Below are positions 52,901-62,276 of a stretch of DNA of 64,000 bases, in pieces. The DNA is from a virus (lineage: Duplodnaviria; Caudoviricetes). Within the stretch, counting starts at the first letter, position 1; every line of letters begins with the position of its first letter. A model generated the notes under the pieces. It saw only the letters and a list, made by a program, of their open reading frames with translations, ran no database searches and was not told the origin of the DNA. The stretch is from positions 32,001 through 96,000 of IMG/VR virus record IMGVR_UViG_2597490325_000001. One strand, given 5' to 3'. Position numbers and translations under genes: made by a program.

Positions 52901-54457
52901 ATGTCTGTTGATTATGGCTTTGCTAATCTGCGTAGCAAAACGAAGCATAATTCTAAAGCTACTGCACATCTTAAAACTCTGGTAGAAGACTACAAAGGCG
53001 ACGAAGTAGATATTCTGTCAGAAGGCGTATATGACGTTGTACGTGACCAAGTTGCGTTCCAAGAATACGTTGAACGTCTTTCCGAAGGTACTTCAGAAGA
53101 AACTGGCGAACAGCTGGCTATTCTGTCTGAAAACACCCGTATGGTAATGCTTCAAGAAAGCATGATTGGTGGCGTTAACCCTATCGCTGCCCTGTCACTA
53201 CCTATGCTGCGTATCGGCTATCCGAAAATGGCTGTACGTGAAGGTCTACCTACTGAACCAGTAGAACAGCCGAAATTCAAAGTAACTACCAAACGTCCTT
53301 ATGTTCTGGATACCGCTACTGGTGAAAAACACTGGTTGCCTGGTGCTTTCCAGACTAAGAAAGAACTGTTTGGTTTACCACGTCTGCAACAGAATGATAT
53401 TACTGTTCCGGCTGGCGGTCTGATTGATTATGATATGCTAGCTCCAATCAGCAAAAATGCTCTGCTTGGTGACGAAATCGATCCACGTTTCACCGTTGTA
53501 GAAGTTACCGATTCTGCTGATGTTGCTATCTCTGTATCCTTCGAACTGGATACTAACCTGAACGCAATCGTTGGTTCTTTCGTTGATAGTACTAACGCTG
53601 CAGTACAGGTTCTGGGTAAAGTTGACCGTTCTAAAGGTCTTCTGACTCTGGTAACTGTTCCGGGCAATGCTATTAAGAAAGTAAAAATTCAGGGTTACGT
53701 TTCTTCTGAAATGAATAACGCTGCAACTCAGGTTGGTTTCGATATTGACGGTGTTGATATTACTATCGGTACTGGTCAGCCTATCGAATCCCCAATCAAT
53801 ATTCAGCAGATGACTGACGTCATGGCTATGTATAATGTAGATTCCACTCTGACTCACATGGAAACTATGTCTACTGCTCTGGCACAGTCTACTGACCTTG
53901 AAGGTGTTCAGTTTATCTATGATTGCTTCGACCGCAATACTAAGAAAATCCAAGAAACCTTCGACGCTATGCCTCCTTCTAACTTCCTGGCTGGCCCTGT
54001 TGAATGGCGTAAAAATATTCATCGTAACTTTGACCGTCTTGTGTCTCAGATGCAGACTGAATTCAACATCTATACTGGTCACGCAGTAGTATTCTGTCAC
54101 CCACTGGACGCTCAGGTTGTTGCTGATGTTCGTTGGATGTACACTAATACTGAACAGCCTAACGATGTTGCTGTTGACTTCCGTGTTGGTACTTACACCT
54201 CCGGTACTACTACTTATGTAGTCCTGCAGTCTCCGAACTTTGTTCAGGGTCATTACGAAATCGTATACATCCCGTCCGAAGCTGACTTTAAATCTCTGGT
54301 ATACTACCCGTATGCGTTCAACGTGATTCGTGGTGCTGCATCACCTAACACTCCGAACCTGCCAGCTATCCAGATGATTAAACGTTACCGCTTCCAGAAG
54401 TTCAACAACATGGTTGCACGTCTGAACATCGTTAATAACGGTGTTGGCGAAGTTTAA
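52901..54457 (+). CDS. Major capsid protein precursor
   Basis: 518 aa, late promoter at 52830, strong RBS, highly biased codons, N-terminal propeptide with ILSE/RLSE/MLQE sites, terminator downstream. Confidence 0.75.
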   Translation: MSVDYGFANLRSKTKHNSKATAHLKTLVEDYKGDEVDILSEGVYDVVRDQVAFQEYVERLSEGTSEETGEQLAILSENTRMVMLQESMIGGVNPIAALSLPMLRIGYPKMAVREGLPTEPVEQPKFKVTTKRPYVLDTATGEKHWLPGAFQTKKELFGLPRLQQNDITVPAGGLIDYDMLAPISKNALLGDEIDPRFTVVEVTDSADVAISVSFELDTNLNAIVGSFVDSTNAAVQVLGKVDRSKGLLTLVTVPGNAIKKVKIQGYVSSEMNNAATQVGFDIDGVDITIGTGQPIESPINIQQMTDVMAMYNVDSTLTHMETMSTALAQSTDLEGVQFIYDCFDRNTKKIQETFDAMPPSNFLAGPVEWRKNIHRNFDRLVSQMQTEFNIYTGHAVVFCHPLDAQVVADVRWMYTNTEQPNDVAVDFRVGTYTSGTTTYVVLQSPNFVQGHYEIVYIPSEADFKSLVYYPYAFNVIRGAASPNTPNLPAIQMIKRYRFQKFNNMVARLNIVNNGVGEV

Positions 54458-56709: not shown

Positions 56710-56793
56710 GATACTAGGAGAAACTTTAAAGTTTCTCCTTTATATCTTTATTTTTATTGTACATTTTTTTAGTTAATTGAACAAAGGTGTATT

Positions 56794-57279
56794 ATGAATA
56801 TATCACAATTTAATAGTATAGATACTCCTACAATTGGTAGTTTAGATGATCATTATAAGACAACAGCCGTTAAACCTCTAGTAGTTGTACCTATAAAGAA
56901 ATCCCCCACCGAAATATCTGATGTACTTAGTATAAAAGATAATAAGCTAGTTATAGATTTAGAAATGTTAGATGGTATAGAAATTAAGGGTTCTAGCCCA
57001 AAAGTAATGAAATTTTTATCAACTCTTATTCTTGAATCTGATAAGAATATTTTCATCAATTCTAATTTTGATGATAAAGATAATCCTAAGAAGTATAAAG
57101 TATGGTTTAACACTGAAGACCCTAAAACTGGTAAACGTGTTGATAATGAAGATTTAGAAAATTATGCTGAATTACAGTATGCCTTAGAAAAAAATAGCAT
57201 ATCTGACTTTTCTTATAAAAATGAATGCTCATGTGGTAAATGTGGGGGTAATGATGCCAGCAGTAGTGAGGTTGGGTGA
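56794..57279 (+). CDS. Hypothetical protein
   Basis: 161 aa, late promoter variant TACA-N6-TAG at about 56760. Confidence 0.65.
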   Translation: MNISQFNSIDTPTIGSLDDHYKTTAVKPLVVVPIKKSPTEISDVLSIKDNKLVIDLEMLDGIEIKGSSPKVMKFLSTLILESDKNIFINSNFDDKDNPKKYKVWFNTEDPKTGKRVDNEDLENYAELQYALEKNSISDFSYKNECSCGKCGGNDASSSEVG

Positions 57280-57541
57280 TCAAGATACTGGACACGGATG
57301 CTATCCACCTAGAGCAAATAATGGTTCTTGTAGTACTGTATTTGCCGATGGTAAACTAATACATCGTAAAGGAGACTCATGGAATGTGCATTCATGCCCT
57401 GATAATCCTCCACACGATGCAACTCTTTCAGGTGGTAGTGGAACTGTAATGGTAGAAGGTGCCGCTGTAGGTAGAGTTGGTGATAGTGTATCATGTGGCG
57501 GTGCCGCTGCACAAGGTTCTTCAACTGTTTTTGCAGGTTAA
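57251..57541 (+). CDS. PAAR-repeat spike-tip protein (T4 gp5.4-like)
   Basis: MPAVVRLGD..GHG, VFADG, H..H, GRVGDSVSCG..GSSTVFAG. Confidence 0.9.
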   Translation: MMPAVVRLGDQDTGHGCYPPRANNGSCSTVFADGKLIHRKGDSWNVHSCPDNPPHDATLSGGSGTVMVEGAAVGRVGDSVSCGGAAAQGSSTVFAG

Positions 57542-57544
57542 TTT

Positions 57545-58174
57545 ATGATTTTATCTAATGAAGAGTATTATATACATACTCAAACACGAAATATTTCCTT
57601 TATTAAAATGGCTAGGTATTTAAAAGATAGAGGTATTGAAAACTATTCCTTTATGCTTAAGCTATATGATAAAGATTTAATGAAAGTTAATCCACATGCA
57701 AGAAATCTTTCTCCCATAACTAAGAGTAAGATTATTGTAGAGTGTACACGAAATCCTTGGTATGCCTTAAGGGAATGCTATATGATTTCTGCTCCTGGTG
57801 GTTCAAGAGTATTCTTTGAGCTTCATCCAGGTAACTTAGCTATTATATGGGCTATTCTTTTAAGTCTATCTGTTATAGTATTACTTCCTCGACAGAGAGG
57901 TAAAACTATCTCTATAGCTACTATATTATCTTACATCTTTTACTTTGGTACCAAAAACACTGCAATGTTATTTGGTAATAAGTCTGGTAAAGATGCAGAG
58001 AACAACTTAGCACGTTTTAAAGATATTACTTTAGGTTTACCTTCTTATTTGAGAGACACATTTGTTGACTCCAAAGACACTGATAACGTAACTCAGATAG
58101 TATCAGTTAAACGTAATAACAAAATTGACATACATGGTCAGCCAGTTTCTGAAGAAGCTGCTGATAAACAGGGT
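57545..58174 (+). CDS. terL: Terminase large subunit, exon 1
   Basis: ECTRNPWY..RE and Walker A LPRQRGKT; ends ..ADKQG at the 5' splice site. Confidence 0.88.
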
Positions 58175-58356
58175 TAACCTACGGCTCTGTATAAATTCCG
58201 TTAGATGACTGGAACCCCTTCAATCTTAAGGCAACCAGCAGTAATGAAAAACCGTATCTTGCATATAATTAAAGATATATTATTTAGGTGATAGAATAAT
58301 AAAGATAATGAAATCTTTATTATATTAACCCATTAATTATAGCGAGGTATTATCCT

Positions 58357-59937
58357 ATGGCTAGCATCAATTCTCTGAAAGCGAACTCTTCTCAGCTGTC
58401 TTTTTCTATGATCCGTAAAATGTTCGAAGATAAAGGTATCTTCGAAACCATCAAAGAAATCGGCGCGGAATTCCTCGATCCAGAAAACATCGCGGAACAT
58501 CGCTACATCAAGTTTAATAATACGAAATACGCTGGCGTGGTTCATCCAAGCCAGAAACGCGCATTAGCTCTTTTGAGCTTACTGGACGTGGTATCAGATG
58601 AAAATCTGGATAAAACGTTTAAACGGAACTCTCCGGTTTCCCGTGTTTTAAGCGGGTACACGTTCTATTCATATCTTTTAGAAAACATTGATCCTGAAGT
58701 CAAATCGAAAGAAATTGACGTCAAGACCATTCTGAAAGACTATGTCAAGGCAGTTTCCCTTGATTTCAAAGGTATGTCGAATTCTGCAATTCGTACAGTC
58801 CTTGAAAACACGGCTAAAAATCAAAGTGATCATATTAAAGCACTTTGGGATTTGGCGGTTAAAGATAATAAGCTGGCAGATAAAGACTACCTGAAAGAAG
58901 AAGATCTTCGTCAGGTTCGGTCTCATCTGAGTCACGTAAATGAAGCTTTGCGTGACAACTTTGTCGGCCCTATTATGGCTAACCGGAAAATTACCGACAT
59001 GGACAAACTGGTACAAGTTTGGGCTATCGGCGAACTGGCTGATGAAATCCTTAAGGAGTGCGAATCCTTAACTGATCTCACTCTGCTGTCTTCCTCCTAT
59101 CCAATCAAAAAGTATTTCGAAGATATTAATACTAAATCAGAGGCTAAACCAATGAAACACACTGCTACCACCGTACCATCTACCGCCGAATCATCATCAT
59201 CATCTGTTACGGCTGCATCAGCTAAAAAAGATGATATCCTGACTGAAACACAGGGTATCATTAAAGACGTTAAAACCGTCATTGCTGGTGAACAGCCAGC
59301 TACTTTAGAAGTTCCTGAAGTAGCAAGCACTGTCGTTAAAGAAGAAGTGGTTACTACCACTAAAACTACTACGACCGCAATTAACGATGACGAAGCGGCT
59401 GAAGCATTAGCTGATCTTGCTGGTCTGTTTGGCGAAGTCGAAATCAGCCTGGTCTTCAGTAAAGAAGACAAAAAGCTGAGCGACATCATTTCCAAAGAAG
59501 TAACAACTCTGGAAAACCGTCTGAAAGAAGTTACTCATTTGGGTAACACTCTGGACGGCGCTTTTGCTTCTATCCGTACTGCCAGCAGCTTGTCCGGTCG
59601 TATTGAAGGACTGCGTGATCTGGTCTTCCTGCTGTCAAAAGCTAAAACTGAAGACAACATGTCAGACAAAGCGAAAGCAAGTCTGCAAACTGTTATCGAT
59701 AAGCTGAACGAAGTTATTACTGTTTCACACGCATATCAGATGGCTACCAACGCCAAAGATAAGCGCAGTATCTTCCGTAAAGCAATCGATCTGGTCATCG
59801 GCTTCTTTGCTGGTATCATAAATGCGTTCATGCTCGTTATTCGTAAACTCATCGATTTCTTCTTTAACTGGAATTCTGATGATTACAAAAAACGTGCTCC
59901 GAGCCGTGATCCGGTAGTTGAACCTGTAGGCGTTTAA
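58357..59937 (+). CDS. Intron-borne 526-aa protein with C-terminal membrane segment and no recognisable nuclease motif
   Basis: Lies in the P6 loop; own early promoter at 58275 and GAGGT RBS; hydrophobic IDLVIGFFAGIINAFMLVI; no HNH, GIY-YIG or LAGLIDADG motif seen. Confidence 0.8.
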   Translation: MASINSLKANSSQLSFSMIRKMFEDKGIFETIKEIGAEFLDPENIAEHRYIKFNNTKYAGVVHPSQKRALALLSLLDVVSDENLDKTFKRNSPVSRVLSGYTFYSYLLENIDPEVKSKEIDVKTILKDYVKAVSLDFKGMSNSAIRTVLENTAKNQSDHIKALWDLAVKDNKLADKDYLKEEDLRQVRSHLSHVNEALRDNFVGPIMANRKITDMDKLVQVWAIGELADEILKECESLTDLTLLSSSYPIKKYFEDINTKSEAKPMKHTATTVPSTAESSSSSVTAASAKKDDILTETQGIIKDVKTVIAGEQPATLEVPEVASTVVKEEVVTTTKTTTTAINDDEAAEALADLAGLFGEVEISLVFSKEDKKLSDIISKEVTTLENRLKEVTHLGNTLDGAFASIRTASSLSGRIEGLRDLVFLLSKAKTEDNMSDKAKASLQTVIDKLNEVITVSHAYQMATNAKDKRSIFRKAIDLVIGFFAGIINAFMLVIRKLIDFFFNWNSDDYKKRAPSRDPVVEPVGV

Positions 59938-59958
59938 GCTACAGGCGCTAGCCATAAT

Positions 59959-59988
59959 AAAAAACAGGGTAAGCCCTGTTTTTTTTTT
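59959..59988 (+). terminator. Intrinsic terminator inside the intron
   Basis: AAAAAACAGGG-TAAG-CCCTG followed by 10 T. Confidence 0.75.
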
Positions 59989-60127
59989 CATTATTCAACG
60001 ACTATTTGTAGAAATCAAGCGATTTCGAAATGCGGAACATAGAAAAAATCTATGAAGATATAGTCTAAACTTATAGGAAACTATAAGCCCTATGGTAACT
60101 ATTTAGCGAATAGTTATAAATGTAAAG

Positions 60128-61543
60128 CGTGGTATGTCAATCCCCTTCCTATGGGAAGATGAGTTAGCATTCTTAAAATATAATAAAACTATCTTTGAAG
60201 CAGCAACTCCGGCAGTAAACCGTATATCGGATATTGCAGAAGCTAATGGTGCTCCACATGCTAAAATTATTTCCACTACCCCTAATAACTTAGACTCACC
60301 AGCTGGTGCTTATTGTAAAAGTACTATTGATAGCGCCTGTGTATTTATTGAAGAAATGTATGATTGGTCTCGTGAAGAAGTATTAGCCTATATTCACGAT
60401 AACTCAATAAACGACTTCTTATATATTAAATATACGTGGAAACAACTTGGTTACAGTGATGATTGGTATGAGAAAGAATGTCGTTCTCTGCAGTTTAACT
60501 GGTTAACCATCAACCGTGAAATCAACTTAGTATGGACTAAATCTACTGATAACTCTGTATTTAACGAAGAACAGTTAATGACTATATCTAAACTTCTTAA
60601 GAATGAGTCAGAAAACTTATTAATCGAAGTAACCCGTTATGATGCAGTAGTAGAAGAAGTAGTTAAGAATACTCTTAAAGTTGAATGTTTTGATGAAATG
60701 AATCCTGATAAATGTTACTTTATAGGAGTGGACGTTGCAGGTGGTCTTGATCAAGATAACTCTACATTTGTAATGACTGACCCTACAGATAATTACAGAC
60801 CAGTAGCATTCTTCAAAAACCCTAAAATTGATACTACTTTGTATTCAAGATTTTTGACTAAGTTTATCAAAGAGTATTTCCCTAAATCAATTCTCTTTAT
60901 AGAAAATAACTCATACGGTCGTGGTTTAATCACTAACTTACTTGATACTATTCCTAAAAATATTTATTATGACTATAGTTTAACTGATAAAAACAAGACT
61001 GCTAGAAACCCTGCTACTAAAACAGATAATATCCGTTGGGGGATAAACACTAACGAAACTACCCGTCAGTTAATGATGGATGTATTAGTTGAATTAGTAA
61101 ATGATACCCCACAGATACTAGCCTATCCAGACCTATATGATGATCTACGTGGTTTAATTTATAATAAACGTGGTAAGATTGAGCATGAGCAAGGTATGCA
61201 TGATGATACCTTAATGGCCTATTTAGTATTACGTTATGCGGTTCAGTATGGTAACAACATTACTAAATTCTTGAGAGAAATTCGAGAAGGTAAAGTAAAT
61301 AATGGAGTTACTAAACTTAAGAACGTAGTGAATAATAATATAGATGACCCTGCAGTAGCAAAAGGTGCAAATATCAATATTTTAGATGTAGCAACTATGG
61401 TTTCTAACGGGATGAGTGTAGAAGAAGCTATGGCTATTATAACTGGTAAAGTCGATAAAGGCGGTACTAAGATCAATAATGCTGCAGTAAATACTATGCT
61501 AAATAAAAATTTAAATTATAATTCAAAATTAAAAGGTAAATAG
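60128..61543 (+). CDS. terL: Terminase large subunit, exon 2
   Basis: RG..WEDELAF (Walker B), ISTTP, nuclease motifs IGVDVAGG..D, IENNSYG and HDDTLMAY; spliced product is 681 aa. Confidence 0.9.
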   Translation, partial: RGMSIPFLWEDELAFLKYNKTIFEAATPAVNRISDIAEANGAPHAKIISTTPNNLDSPAGAYCKSTIDSACVFIEEMYDWSREEVLAYIHDNSINDFLYIKYTWKQLGYSDDWYEKECRSLQFNWLTINREINLVWTKSTDNSVFNEEQLMTISKLLKNESENLLIEVTRYDAVVEEVVKNTLKVECFDEMNPDKCYFIGVDVAGGLDQDNSTFVMTDPTDNYRPVAFFKNPKIDTTLYSRFLTKFIKEYFPKSILFIENNSYGRGLITNLLDTIPKNIYYDYSLTDKNKTARNPATKTDNIRWGINTNETTRQLMMDVLVELVNDTPQILAYPDLYDDLRGLIYNKRGKIEHEQGMHDDTLMAYLVLRYAVQYGNNITKFLREIREGKVNNGVTKLKNVVNNNIDDPAVAKGANINILDVATMVSNGMSVEEAMAIITGKVDKGGTKINNAAVNTMLNKNLNYNSKLKGK

Positions 61544-61544
61544 T

Positions 61545-62276
61545 ATGGAATTGGATTTTGTAAGAGAATCGTATTCTACATTAGATGGAGCTTTAGAAGA
61601 TTTCTTATCTAGTAAAGCTGATTTATTTAGTTCCGCTCCAAGGAATGATTTCCTTGAAGGATTAATGTCTAGAATTGATTCAGCTAAACTTTCTGAAGAT
61701 CTTGATTCAGATGATAAAGATGAATTACAAGGTTTAGAAAGTGCATTATACCATAAAATCATTTCTCACTTCAGAAAGGATTATTCTATTAATGAAGAAG
61801 AAATTGCTAATATTTTTGAGAATGCTCAAATTACCAGATTCTATATTCAGAAGATTTATGATCTTTTTTATACTGGTAAACGAGAAATTCTTATTAATTT
61901 CCTAGCTAACTTTATTTTTGATAATAAAGGTGATTTTGCTAAGCAATATAAAGCTCAAGTAAGTAAAAAAGATTATGAATATTACTCTCTTCGTAAAGAT
62001 CTTTCATTGTCTAAACCTGAGTATTATTGTATTATCATTAAAGCTGTAGAAATTGTCAATGATATTTTGGAAGATACCGAGAGTTTTGACTTTAAAGAAG
62101 TACTCCTTGGTAGTGATTTAGAAGTTGAAGATGTAGAAACCGTCTATTCGTTATTTGATAGCAGTTCTGATAACTTCTCTAGATTTATCGATACTTTGAT
62201 TGGAAGTATTAACCAAGACCGAATTTCTCTAGAAGTTAAAGATAAATTAGGTAATATGCTTAAAAATGCTAAGTAA
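61545..62276 (+). CDS. Hypothetical protein
   Basis: 243-aa ORF. Confidence 0.7.
   Translation: MELDFVRESYSTLDGALEDFLSSKADLFSSAPRNDFLEGLMSRIDSAKLSEDLDSDDKDELQGLESALYHKIISHFRKDYSINEEEIANIFENAQITRFYIQKIYDLFYTGKREILINFLANFIFDNKGDFAKQYKAQVSKKDYEYYSLRKDLSLSKPEYYCIIIKAVEIVNDILEDTESFDFKEVLLGSDLEVEDVETVYSLFDSSSDNFSRFIDTLIGSINQDRISLEVKDKLGNMLKNAK

What the first reader, a model, noticed from the sequence alone, without database searches (positions are those of the whole stretch)
58175..60127. Group I intron in terminase carries a complete transcription unit encoding an apparent non-nuclease membrane protein
Seen: a canonical group I core (P1, P3, P4, P7, P8, P9, P10, terminal G) interrupts terL, and splicing restores the GRG motif. 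The P6a stem (TAATGAAAAA 58242-58251 / TTTTTCATTA 59984-59993) encloses about 1.7 kb. That loop holds an early promoter motif (58275), an RBS, a 526-aa ORF with a helical domain, Thr/Ser linker, coiled coil and C-terminal hydrophobic helix, and its own terminator. Known: ORFs in phage group I introns are almost always homing endonucleases. Inference: this intron shelters an early, host-facing cargo gene inside an essential late gene. Its codon usage (CTG, ATC, AAC, GGC) resembles the phage's highly expressed genes rather than a decaying nuclease.
Basis: partly seen in the sequence, partly recalled or inferred. Interest (0 to 1): 0.92.

Follow-up and report, generated by a model that had tools for sequence, protein, structure and literature searches.

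The report
Terminase intron carrying a non-nuclease gene
A self-splicing-type intron in the DNA-packaging gene of a giant Yersinia phage carries, instead of the usual DNA-cutting enzyme, a complete gene for an abundant, probably membrane-anchored protein of unknown function.

Summary
The window lies in a 262,391-bp phage genome whose coordinates match published phiR1-37; the ORF is its g144. terL is split at 58174|60128. In-silico splicing gives a TerL that aligns without a gap across the junction to the uninterrupted BpSp TerL. Bacillus phage AR9 has an ORF-less, Rfam-passing group I intron at exactly the same terL codon, and it aligns to both halves of this one with compensatory changes. Relative to AR9, a 1.7-kb cassette sits in the P6 loop. 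It holds the phage's AT-rich promoter motif, an RBS, the 526-aa ORF and an intrinsic terminator.

The ORF is a real gene. It has 6 metagenomic homologues and dN/dS of 0.2. Its codon usage resembles the major head and sheath genes (rank 8 of 252). It has one C-terminal hydrophobic helix.

No nuclease signature was found by Pfam, PHROGs, NCBIfam, PADLOC, PDB or an exhaustive profile search. A GIY-YIG-like hairpin was not significant. Structure models were too poor to exclude a cryptic fold.

Splicing, timing and membrane location remain untested: RNA contigs showed no spliced junction.

Unchecked notes from this scan report non-nuclease cargo in phage group I introns on other DNA.

The parts
57545..58174 (+). 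terL exon 1 (210 codons; Walker A PRQRGKT); published gene g143 by inference from numbering
   Evidence: (phrog_32359 and phrog_2, terminase large subunit)
58175..60127 (+). group I intron (IA-type core), 1953 nt; begins with UAA, which is the stop of the exon-1 frame, and ends with G60127
58168..58190 (+). P1 hairpin: exon end ACAGGGU plus U58175 paired to the internal guide 58183-58190, with a U58174-G58184 wobble at the 5' splice site. 58179-58183 (CUACG) can pair with exon-2 bases 60128-60132 (P10)
   Evidence: The exon A58170/guide U58188 pair is U/A in AR9
58196..58238 (+). P3 5' strand (58196-58201), P4 (58209-12/58235-38) and P5 (58217-20/58228-31)
   Evidence: Aligns with two other introns of the same genome and with AR9 intron 1
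58242..58251 (+). P6 5' arm UAAUGAAAAA
   Evidence: exact complement of 59984-59993
58252..59983 (+). 1732-nt cassette looped out of P6; absent from the same-site AR9 intron
58275..58290 (+). phage promoter motif ATATATTAT-TTAGG-TG. By analogy with the AR9 consensus the transcript would start at about G58290
   Evidence: AR9 consensus from PMC5312081
58344..58347 (+). Shine-Dalgarno GAGG, 9 nt before the ATG
58357..59937 (+). g144: 526-aa ORFan. Helical N-domain (1-262), variable Thr/Ser/Val/Glu linker (about 263-345), conserved helical C-domain (346-476), hydrophobic helix 477-495, basic/acidic tail
59090..59192 (-). published antisense RNA misc_5 (genome 91,090-91,192), 'antisense to middle part of g144'
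   Evidence: PMC4848604 Table 1
59959..59988 (+). intrinsic terminator. Its 5' arm AAACAGGGT (59962-59970) repeats the last 9 bases of exon 1, and its T run overlaps the P6 3' arm
   Evidence: note e1-6203330
59984..59993 (+). P6 3' arm UUUUUCAUUA
59994..60127 (+). ribozyme 3' half: J6/7 + P7 5' (GACUA 60000-04), hairpin 60011-26, P3 3' (60032-37), P8 (60039-53), J8/7 + P7 3' (UAGUC 60061-65), P9 (60070-87, GAAA loop), P9.1 (60097-60115), terminal G60127
60128..61543 (+). terL exon 2. It begins CGU GGU AUG, and the in-frame ATG at 60134 explains why it can be called as a separate ORF

Best explanation
Shown. terL of this phiR1-37-type phage is interrupted, eight codons before the Walker-B/catalytic WEDE, by a group I intron. 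The intron is homologous to an ORF-less intron at the identical codon in Bacillus phage AR9.

Shown. Compared with AR9, the P6 hairpin loop holds a 1.7-kb expression cassette. It contains a copy of the phage's conserved AT-rich promoter, a Shine-Dalgarno site, g144 and an intrinsic terminator.

Shown. g144 belongs to a lineage-restricted family under purifying selection. Its codon usage resembles that of the major head and sheath genes.

Inferred. Transcripts that start at the internal promoter lack the 5' half of the ribozyme. They end at the terminator and serve only as g144 mRNA. Transcripts that start upstream read through the terminator, fold P6 across the cassette, and self-splice to give TerL mRNA.

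Inferred. g144 is not a homing endonuclease. It is an abundant helical protein held at the inner membrane by a single C-terminal helix, with its bulk in the cytoplasm. The intron serves it as a site from which it cannot be deleted imprecisely without destroying an essential gene.

What g144 does biochemically is not established. My best guess is an early or continuously made membrane-associated factor, for example exclusion of competing phages or anchoring of a phage process at the membrane.
For: Intron:
- Gapless junction alignment to BpSp TerL.
- AR9 exon 1 ends at the same residue, 210.
- The AR9 intron at L002 2604-2850 scores 82.3 bits in Rfam.
- It aligns with the 5' half here at 79% column identity and with the 3' half at 69%.
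- There are double changes that keep pairing in P1 (A-U to U-A), P3 (2 of 6 pairs) and P9 (4 of 7 pairs), by my reading of those alignments.
- Against the environmental relative L003, the 8 substitutions in 59994-60127 are 3 in P9 that keep pairing and 5 in loops or junctions. None breaks a helix.
- The Rfam partial hit has E 5.7e-6.
- The same genome has three further Intron_gpI hits, one at 69.8 bits, that share the 5'-half pattern.

Cassette:
- Promoter motif statistics and terminator.

Gene:
- 6 homologues at 98-68% identity, all full-length ones starting MASIN.
- dN/dS is 0.195 against L003.
- The arrangement recurs in all 3 contexts I could see: the window, L003 (which lacks the 5' part) and a 7.2-kb metatranscriptome contig with only in-frame changes.
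- Codon log-likelihood rank is 8 of 252 ORFs, and GC3 is 0.40 against a median of 0.23.
- In three RNA-seq runs of two studies, the short contigs inside g144 carry word depths of thousands to 95,000. The contigs over the terL exons carry 125-1,060. The tool warns that this is a poor measure of expression.

Not a recognisable nuclease:
- No family in Pfam, PHROGs, NCBIfam or PADLOC.
- No PDB sequence match below E 0.6.
- An exhaustive profile search of 1.84 billion representatives found only its own 2 clusters.

Membrane:
- A single 19-mer with hydropathy 2.35 at 477-495, and no hydrophobic N-terminus.
Against: - No spliced junction was seen. RNA contigs of 4 runs bridge both intron-exon boundaries unspliced, and no joint was reported. 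Contigs drop rare forms and may include DNA.
- The Rfam score is below the family's gathering score.
- A fold-level nuclease test failed for lack of a usable model.
- Residues 49-68 (RYIKFNNTKYAGVV......KR) resemble the GIY-YIG hairpin plus helix. The 3' end of this intron is closest to an intron region in L090 that holds two GIY-YIG ORFs.
- High codon adaptation equally fits a virion protein. I could not read the virion proteome (Skurnik 2012 is not held).
- g142, directly upstream of exon 1, is classed early (PMC4848604, section 3.3), so 'late terL' is not secure in this phage.
- A hydrophobic helix can be buried in a helical bundle rather than in a membrane.
Confidence: 0.6

Rival explanations
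1. g144 descends from, or still is, a homing endonuclease. An I-TevI-like layout (N-terminal catalytic domain, long linker, C-terminal binding domain) would have diverged beyond recognition, with or without retained DNA cleavage.
For: - Intron ORFs in phages are normally homing endonucleases (PMC12908238 passages; PMC3984707 passage).
- The AR9 precedent g190 is HNH.
- The related L090 region with several group I introns holds two ORFs carrying the GIY-YIG motif.
- Both models predict a beta-hairpin at residues 51-58 followed by a helix.
- hhalign's single best local match of the family to 4 GIY-YIG domains is exactly this hairpin.
- In one member (P0004), an unfiltered HMM alignment runs in the expected register across residues 52-131.
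Against: - hhalign gives probability 0.44% and E 0.13 over 12 columns only.
- The GIY-YIG HMM built from 16 domains scores 3.6 bits on the N-terminal 140 residues, and 19 of 1000 shuffles reach that score. The hypothesis was chosen after seeing the motif.
- His47 and His63 are not conserved: they are Q and D in P0004.
- Pfam lists no nuclease family even at E up to 10 in any of the 6 members.
- Strong codon adaptation and apparent high RNA level are the opposite of what I recall for tightly limited homing endonucleases.
- A C-terminal membrane-type helix is unexpected for a DNA enzyme.
Confidence: 0.15
2. g144 is an abundant morphogenetic or virion protein (scaffold-like, decoration, or an ejected protein with a membrane-inserting helix). 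It sits in the intron simply because the intron lies in the structural/packaging module. It is not an early host-directed factor.
For: - Its codon usage groups it with the major head protein, sheath and g326.
- It lies between the major head gene (52901-54457) and the downstream genes that match the AR9/BpSp terL-to-sheath block.
- Its length, helical content and flexible linker resemble those of many virion proteins. The only weak fold hits in BFVD besides itself are tape-measure-like long helices (not significant).
- The phiR1-37 paper found that most virion genes are expressed 'constitutively' (PMC4848604, section 3.3).
Against: - The major head gene has no copy of the ATATATTAT motif upstream, while g144 has one that fits the consensus.
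- There is no PHROG family and no homologue in AR9, PBS1, BpSp or any of 50,697 phage records, whereas virion core proteins of this group are shared.
- It is not among the named highest-expressed virion genes in PMC4848604 section 3.3. That list names only annotated genes.
Confidence: 0.2
3. There is no splicing. The ribozyme is defunct, and TerL is made as two polypeptides (g143 and g145) that assemble. The ATG at 60134 would serve as the start of the second.
For: - An in-frame ATG lies 6 nt after the 3' splice site.
- The exon-1 product has a PHROG of its own, 210 positions long and named terminase large subunit, so the halves may be annotated as separate proteins.
- No joined RNA contig was seen.
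Against: - All core helices are intact, and relatives conserve them with compensatory changes.
- There is no Shine-Dalgarno-like sequence before 60134.
- The split falls 8 residues before the Walker-B motif, inside the ATPase domain.
- AR9 annotates its same-site intron as spliced, with the CDS joined from 5 pieces.
Confidence: 0.05

Closest known systems
Phage T4 td intron with I-TevI (group IA2)
   Same: A group I intron in an essential phage gene, with a stop codon right after the 5' splice site. T4 annotation shows I-TevI inside the joined td CDS. From recall: the ORF is looped out of P6, and I-TevI is separately transcribed.
   Different: The cargo here has no GIY-YIG or other nuclease signature. 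It is twice as long, is codon-adapted like structural genes, ends in a hydrophobic helix and has its own intrinsic terminator.
AR9 g190 inside the intron of g189 (virion RNAP beta subunit)
   Same: In the closest characterised relative, a gene with its own early promoter lies inside an intron of a late gene (PMC5312081 passage).
   Different: g190 is an annotated HNH/AP2 homing endonuclease of 225 aa. g144 is an ORFan.
AR9 terL intron 1 (L002 2614 to about 2906)
   Same: The same insertion point (after ...DK-x-G, before RG), a homologous core, and the same P1/P10 logic.
   Different: It is ORF-less, with a short P6 hairpin where the 1.7-kb cassette sits here. BpSp has no intron at the site.
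Organelle group I introns that house ordinary genes (corallimorph/hexacoral mitochondrial ND5-717; fungal rnl intron with rps3)
   Same: Group I introns whose loops carry non-endonuclease genes. For ND5-717 I saw only the search listing and the start of the abstract of PMC6545197. The gene content and the rps3 case are recalled.
   Different: Those are organellar housekeeping genes without their own promoter and terminator. This is a phage, and the cargo is a lineage-specific accessory gene with its own transcription signals.
PhiPA3 intron-encoded HNH endonuclease gp210 acting in phage-phage competition
   Same: A jumbo-phage intron ORF that benefits its phage rather than being purely selfish (PMC11620839, search listing and start of the abstract only).
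   Different: That effector is a nuclease. No nuclease is recognisable here, and no competition phenotype has been tested.

Membership tests
Group I intron (Rfam RF00028) | P1 with a U-G wobble at the 5' splice site, formed with an internal guide sequence | tested here: met
   58168-58175/58183-58190 with U58174-G58184. The exon/guide pair covaries with AR9.
Group I intron (Rfam RF00028) | Terminal G at the 3' end, and P10 with the 3' exon | tested here: met
   G60127; CUACG 58179-83 pairs with CGUGG 60128-32 (my reading).
Group I intron (Rfam RF00028) | Conserved catalytic core (P3-P8, with the P7 strands in the R and S elements) recognised by the covariance model | tested here: inconclusive
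   32.6 bits against a gathering score of 50, E 5.7e-6, 3' half only. A 1.7-kb loop cannot be spanned by the model.
Group I intron (Rfam RF00028) | Homology to an intron that does pass the model, with base pairs kept by compensatory change | tested here: met
   AR9 intron 1 scores 82.3 bits. Alignments A5 and A6 show double changes in P1, P3 and P9.
Group I intron (Rfam RF00028) | Exon ligation restores the host reading frame | tested here: met
   In silico only: a 681-aa TerL, gapless across the junction against BpSp.
Group I intron (Rfam RF00028) | GTP-dependent self-splicing, or spliced RNA in vivo | not testable with these tools
   Only assembled contigs could be laid; raw reads were not available.
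Homing endonucleases (GIY-YIG, HNH, LAGLIDADG, PD-(D/E)xK, EDxHD, His-Cys) | Match to a family profile | tested here: not met
   No such family in Pfam (E up to 10, all 6 members), PHROGs, NCBIfam or PADLOC. The PDB profile search gave nothing below E 0.6.
Homing endonucleases (GIY-YIG) | GIY...YIG hairpin, Arg on helix 1, and Glu after strand 3, in register with the domain | tested here: inconclusive
   There is a look-alike at residues 49-68 and E109. hhalign gives probability 0.44%. The HMM scores 3.6 bits, reached by 19 of 1000 shuffles.
Homing endonucleases (any) | Nuclease fold | tested here: inconclusive
   Model pLDDT is 44 (full length) and 35 (residues 1-268). Only generic helical-bundle matches appear, with Z up to 8.9.
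Homing endonucleases (any) | Cleavage of the intron-less allele | not testable with these tools
   Needs an enzyme assay.
C-tail-anchored inner-membrane protein | A single hydrophobic helix near the C-terminus and no N-terminal signal sequence | tested here: met
   Hydropathy is 2.35 at 477-495. The next-highest windows away from this helix are 1.24-1.38 at residues 349-350. The N-terminus MASINSLKANSSQ is polar.
C-tail-anchored inner-membrane protein | Membrane localisation | not testable with these tools
   Needs fractionation or microscopy.
phiR1-37/AR9 AT-rich (virion RNAP, 'early') promoters | Match to the conserved element with G/TG at fixed spacing | tested here: met
   58275-58290 is one of 39 genome sites and also fits T-6, T-5, A-4 and G-1. 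The AR9 consensus AAATATATATTAT-N6-G is taken from PMC5312081.
phiR1-37/AR9 AT-rich (virion RNAP, 'early') promoters | A mapped transcription start and early kinetics | not tested
   Table S2 of PMC4848604 would show this, but supplements are closed.

The most novel reading that the evidence does not exclude
The intron is a two-state expression device. The internal promoter makes large amounts of g144 mRNA that stops at a terminator. The 5' arm of that terminator is an exact 9-nt copy of the exon-1 end (the P1 substrate strand).

Only transcripts that begin upstream carry the internal guide sequence, which can pair with that arm. This pairing would prevent the terminator hairpin and allow read-through into the ribozyme 3' half and exon 2.

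If so, terL expression is gated by promoter-specific antitermination built from intron parts. g144 itself would be an abundant early tail-anchored protein that acts at the host membrane, for example to exclude rival phages. Together these would make the intron a beneficial, non-nuclease 'safe-harbour' module.
Probability: 0.15. Interest if true: 0.85.

Novelty: new variant of a known kind. Interest (0 to 1): 0.62.

Why it matters
Phage group I introns are treated as vehicles for homing endonucleases. This one is in a cultivable, published phage with existing RNA-seq data. It carries a large, codon-optimised, apparently highly transcribed gene that no method recognises as a nuclease, and it has its own promoter and terminator.

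A same-site ORF-less intron (AR9) and an intron-less allele (BpSp) are available for comparison. That makes it possible to test directly whether introns in essential genes serve as protected sites for accessory genes. The tests would be deleting the cassette, following splicing and termination, and localising the protein.

It also corrects the reading of terL in this genome: the two ORFs are two exons of one gene.

I found no description of the intron or of g144's placement in the papers I could search or read. The original genome paper was not available to me.

Tried and rejected
- **Rfam at gathering threshold** on the whole window gave only four tRNAs and no intron.
- **Near-DNA and protein searches of 50,697 phage records.** Nothing was found for the ORF. 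The only near-DNA hit was a 37-nt core match in a Bacillus phage.
- **The search for related loci.**
  - With the ORF in IMG/VR: one locus, L003.
  - With the ORF in JGI metagenomes: none of 94 pattern matches was confirmed.
  - With TerL exon 1 in IMG/VR: none of 20.
- **19-nt core pattern scan** gave 102 stretches, of which 80 were listed in the output. Only L003/L015 was a close relative, and L090 shared 74 nt at 88%.
- **Five large IMG/VR records** held only distant TerL (27-39% identity), several split at other places. They are not informative for this site.
- **ESM Atlas**, whole protein and residues 30-135: no usable feature hit, and structural rows had TM below 0.5 on a model of pLDDT 0.38.
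- **AlphaFold**, full length (6-row alignment) and residues 1-268 (4 rows): pLDDT 44.3 and 34.7.
- **Fold searches.** BFVD found only the protein itself (G4KK83). VIA-wide against PDB found only generic four-helix-bundle and helical-hairpin matches, with Z up to 8.9. That is below the level the tool calls meaningful for helical models. No nuclease fold was listed, which proves nothing with such models.
- **Read laying.** No joint was seen at 58174/60128 in the contigs of four RNA runs. Contigs X1 record 1, X2 record 9 and X3 record 17 run unspliced across 58174/58175. X1 record 8, X2 record 16 and X3 record 24 run across 60127/60128. Contigs cannot show absence of a rare spliced form and may contain DNA.
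- **Depth inside g144** is reported as a weak hint only.
- **Papers not held:** Skurnik 2012 (phiR1-37 genome and proteome) and Lavysh 2016 (AR9 genome). Supplements are closed, so Table S2 of PMC4848604 (expression class and confirmed promoters of g143-g145) could not be seen. It may settle the timing question.
- **PMC6893735** turned out to concern another phage.
- **HNH reading rejected.** I considered residues 47-63 (H...NN...H) as an HNH motif and rejected it because both histidines vary within the family.
Full report
**Identity of the DNA.** The window is bases 32,001-96,000 of a single 262,391-bp virus record with 32.5% G+C. The phiR1-37 transcriptome paper lists an antisense RNA at 91,090-91,192 'antisense to middle part of g144' and another at 242,633-242,957 inside g326 (PMC4848604 Table 1). 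In this record those coordinates fall inside the 526-aa ORF (90,357-91,937) and inside a 445-aa ORF (241,918-243,255). The same paper names a PAAR-repeat protein, g142. The ORF directly upstream of terL exon 1 (57221-57541) reads to me like a PAAR protein (my reading, no family search). I therefore treat the genome as Yersinia phage phiR1-37 and the ORF as g144. By numbering, g143 and g145 would be the two terL pieces.

**The split terminase.** ORF 57545-58177 matches terminase large subunit families, and so does ORF 60134-61543. Joining 58174 to 60128 in a script gives 681 aa. This aligns to the uninterrupted 658-aa TerL of Bacillus phage BpSp at E 1e-145, running straight through ...EEAADKQG|RGMSIPFLWEDELAFLKYN.... 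The stop of the first frame is the first triplet of the intervening sequence, and the last intervening base is G.

**The intron.**
- Rfam's group I model does not reach its gathering score. In a search of the region alone it matches 59924-60087 at 32.6 bits, E 5.7e-6, with near-perfect agreement over AUGAAGAUAUAGUCUAAACUUAUAGGAAACUAUAAG.
- Reading the sequence gives P1, P10, P3, P4, P5, P6, P7, a P7.x hairpin, P8, P9, P9.1 and the terminal G at the coordinates listed under parts.
- The strongest support is comparative. In AR9, whose terL CDS is annotated as joined from five pieces, tblastn places the end of exon 1 at the same residue 210.
- Rfam finds four introns above threshold in AR9 terL. 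The first, at L002 2604-2850, scores 82.3 bits.
- The AR9 sequence reads ...AAACTGGGT|TAAC...CTTG|CGTGGT..., which is the same splice context.
- The 5' halves align at 79% column identity and the 3' halves at 69%.
- Where the two differ in helices, pairing is kept. In P1 the exon A / guide U here is U / A in AR9. In P3, U-A becomes C-G and G-C becomes U-G. Four of the seven P9 pairs are exchanged.
- An environmental relative, L003 (TerL exon 2 97.9% identical), has 8 substitutions in the ribozyme 3' half. Three are in P9 and keep pairing, and five are in loops or junctions.
- Two other introns in the same genome share the 5'-half pattern UAAA-P3-...-CUGGAA-...-CAGCAG.

I conclude the intron is real. 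BpSp (no intron), AR9 (ORF-less intron) and phiR1-37 (ORF-bearing intron) are three states of one site.

**The cassette.** Where AR9 has a short P6 hairpin, this intron has the 10-bp helix 58242-51/59984-93 enclosing 1,732 nt.
- Twenty-four bases into the loop lies ATATATTAT-TTAGG-TG.
- The 9-mer occurs 54 times in the genome (44 on +, 10 on -), and 39 of these are followed by TG after five bases. Base composition would predict about one in twenty (my arithmetic).
- The intron copy also has the preferred T-6, T-5, A-4 and G-1.
- The AR9 transcription paper gives the AR9 early (virion RNAP) consensus as AAATATATATTAT-N6-G(+1). It says the phiR1-37 motif is of the same kind, with a start 6 nt downstream (PMC5312081 passages).
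- The phiR1-37 paper itself confirms 56 such promoters but could not separate early from late promoters by sequence (PMC4848604, section 3.4).
- GAGG lies 9 nt before the ATG. An 11-bp hairpin plus T run follows the stop codon.

**The gene product.**
- *Family.* g144 has six relatives in a 5.8-billion-protein collection (98, 91, 81, 69, 68 and 68% identity; two are fragments). It has none in a profile search of 1.84 billion representatives beyond its own two clusters.
- *Conservation.* The alignment shows a conserved N-domain, a linker that varies in length and sequence, and a very conserved C-domain.
- *Selection.* Against L003, dN/dS is 0.195 over 300 codons, compared with 0.03-0.11 for four neighbouring genes.
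- *Composition.* GC3 is 0.40 against a genome median of 0.23.
- *Codon usage.* In a codon log-likelihood test with the major head protein, sheath and g326 as reference, g144 ranks 8th of 252 ORFs, or 5th among non-reference ORFs. PMC4848604 names g326 among the genes with the highest read counts (section 3.3).
- *RNA level.* In three RNA-seq runs of two studies, the short contigs inside g144 have far higher word depths than the long contigs over the exons. The tool cautions against ranking by this.
- *Hydropathy.* A single peak at 477-495 and a polar N-terminus suggest a C-tail anchor.

**Is it a nuclease?** No library recognises one.
- I noticed that residues 49-68 look like the GIY-YIG hairpin and the Arg of helix 1. 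I also noted that the nearest relative of the intron's 3' end lies in a region of L090 that holds two GIY-YIG ORFs.
- A profile-profile comparison with four GIY-YIG domains picked out that hairpin, but at probability 0.44%.
- An HMM built from 16 GIY-YIG domains collected from the fetched loci scored 3.6 bits without filters, a value reached by 19 of 1000 shuffles.
- Two structure predictions were unusable, and the fold searches returned only generic helical matches.

A cryptic or degenerate nuclease is therefore not excluded. I put it at about 15%.

**What is and is not new.** A promoter-driven gene inside an intron of a late gene is already documented in AR9, but there it is an HNH endonuclease. 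Reviews and recent surveys that I read in passages treat phage intron ORFs as homing endonucleases. My searches found no paper describing this intron or discussing g144 beyond the antisense-RNA table. The 2012 genome paper could not be read. Earlier unchecked notes of this scan report non-nuclease cargo in phage group I introns on other DNA, including a terL intron of an uncultured jumbo phage. I did not test those.

**Other observations.**
- The terminator's 5' arm is identical to the last nine bases of exon 1. Its 3' arm differs by one base from the guide sequence. I verified this; it was first noted in e1-6203330.
- Against a 7.2-kb metatranscriptome contig, the intron with its cargo has 8 differences in 1,953 nt while the terL exons have 23 in 2,046 nt, all 23 synonymous (Fisher p 0.011).
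- Against L003 the cargo is instead the more diverged part: dS is 0.97 against 0.455 for exon 2.
- The cargo and the exons therefore seem to have partly separate histories.

**Verdict.** This is a new variant of a known kind, it is testable in a cultured system, and the function of g144 remains open.

Noticed in passing
window 59962-59979 versus 58166-58190: The terminator hairpin inside the intron copies P1. Its 5' arm AAACAGGGT equals the last 9 bases of exon 1, and its 3' arm GCCCTGT differs by one base from the guide GCTCTGT. Its T run is also part of the P6 3' arm. L003 keeps AACAGGGT...GCCCTGT with a different loop.
   Followed up: partly
window 57200-61600 versus an RNA-run contig (record 25) and versus L003: History looks mosaic. 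Against the close relative, the intron plus g144 is about 2.7 times less diverged than the terL exons (8/1953 against 23/2046, p 0.011). Against L003, g144 is the more diverged part (73% aa identity and dS 0.97, against 97.9% and 0.455 for exon 2).
   Followed up: partly
window 58881, 59031, 59151 (+); published asRNA 59090-59192 (-): Sequencing-adapter letters abut these places in RNA contigs of three runs, with 59151 seen in two runs. This suggests abundant short fragments inside g144. The two published 'antisense RNAs' misc_5 and misc_10 lie inside g144 and g326, two of the most codon-biased genes, so they may be strand leakage from very abundant sense RNA.
   Followed up: no
genome 234911-235216, 124454-124812, 253291-253406 (outside the window): There are three further Intron_gpI matches in the same genome (69.8, 44.1 and 31.1 bits), so this phage carries several group I introns. 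The first two share the 5'-half pattern of the terL intron.
   Followed up: partly
L002 2604-3949 (AR9 terL): Four Rfam-passing group I introns (92.7, 83.2, 82.3 and 70.6 bits) are packed within 1.35 kb of AR9 terL, separated by very short exons.
   Followed up: partly
window 57221-57545: The upstream ORF 57221-57541, which I read as the PAAR-repeat gene g142 (classed early in PMC4848604), ends 3 nt before the terL start. A terminator-like hairpin lies further upstream at 56716-56739. terL exon 1 may therefore be co-transcribed with an early gene.
   Followed up: no
window 60134: An in-frame ATG lies two codons after the 3' splice site, which lets exon 2 be called as a stand-alone 469-aa ORF. 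This is probably why the terL halves look like separate genes.
   Followed up: no
L090 2200-5700: An environmental phage region has four group I intron matches and two ORFs with the GIY-YIG motif (303 and 235 aa). One intron's 3' end is 88% identical over 74 nt to the terL intron here.
   Followed up: partly
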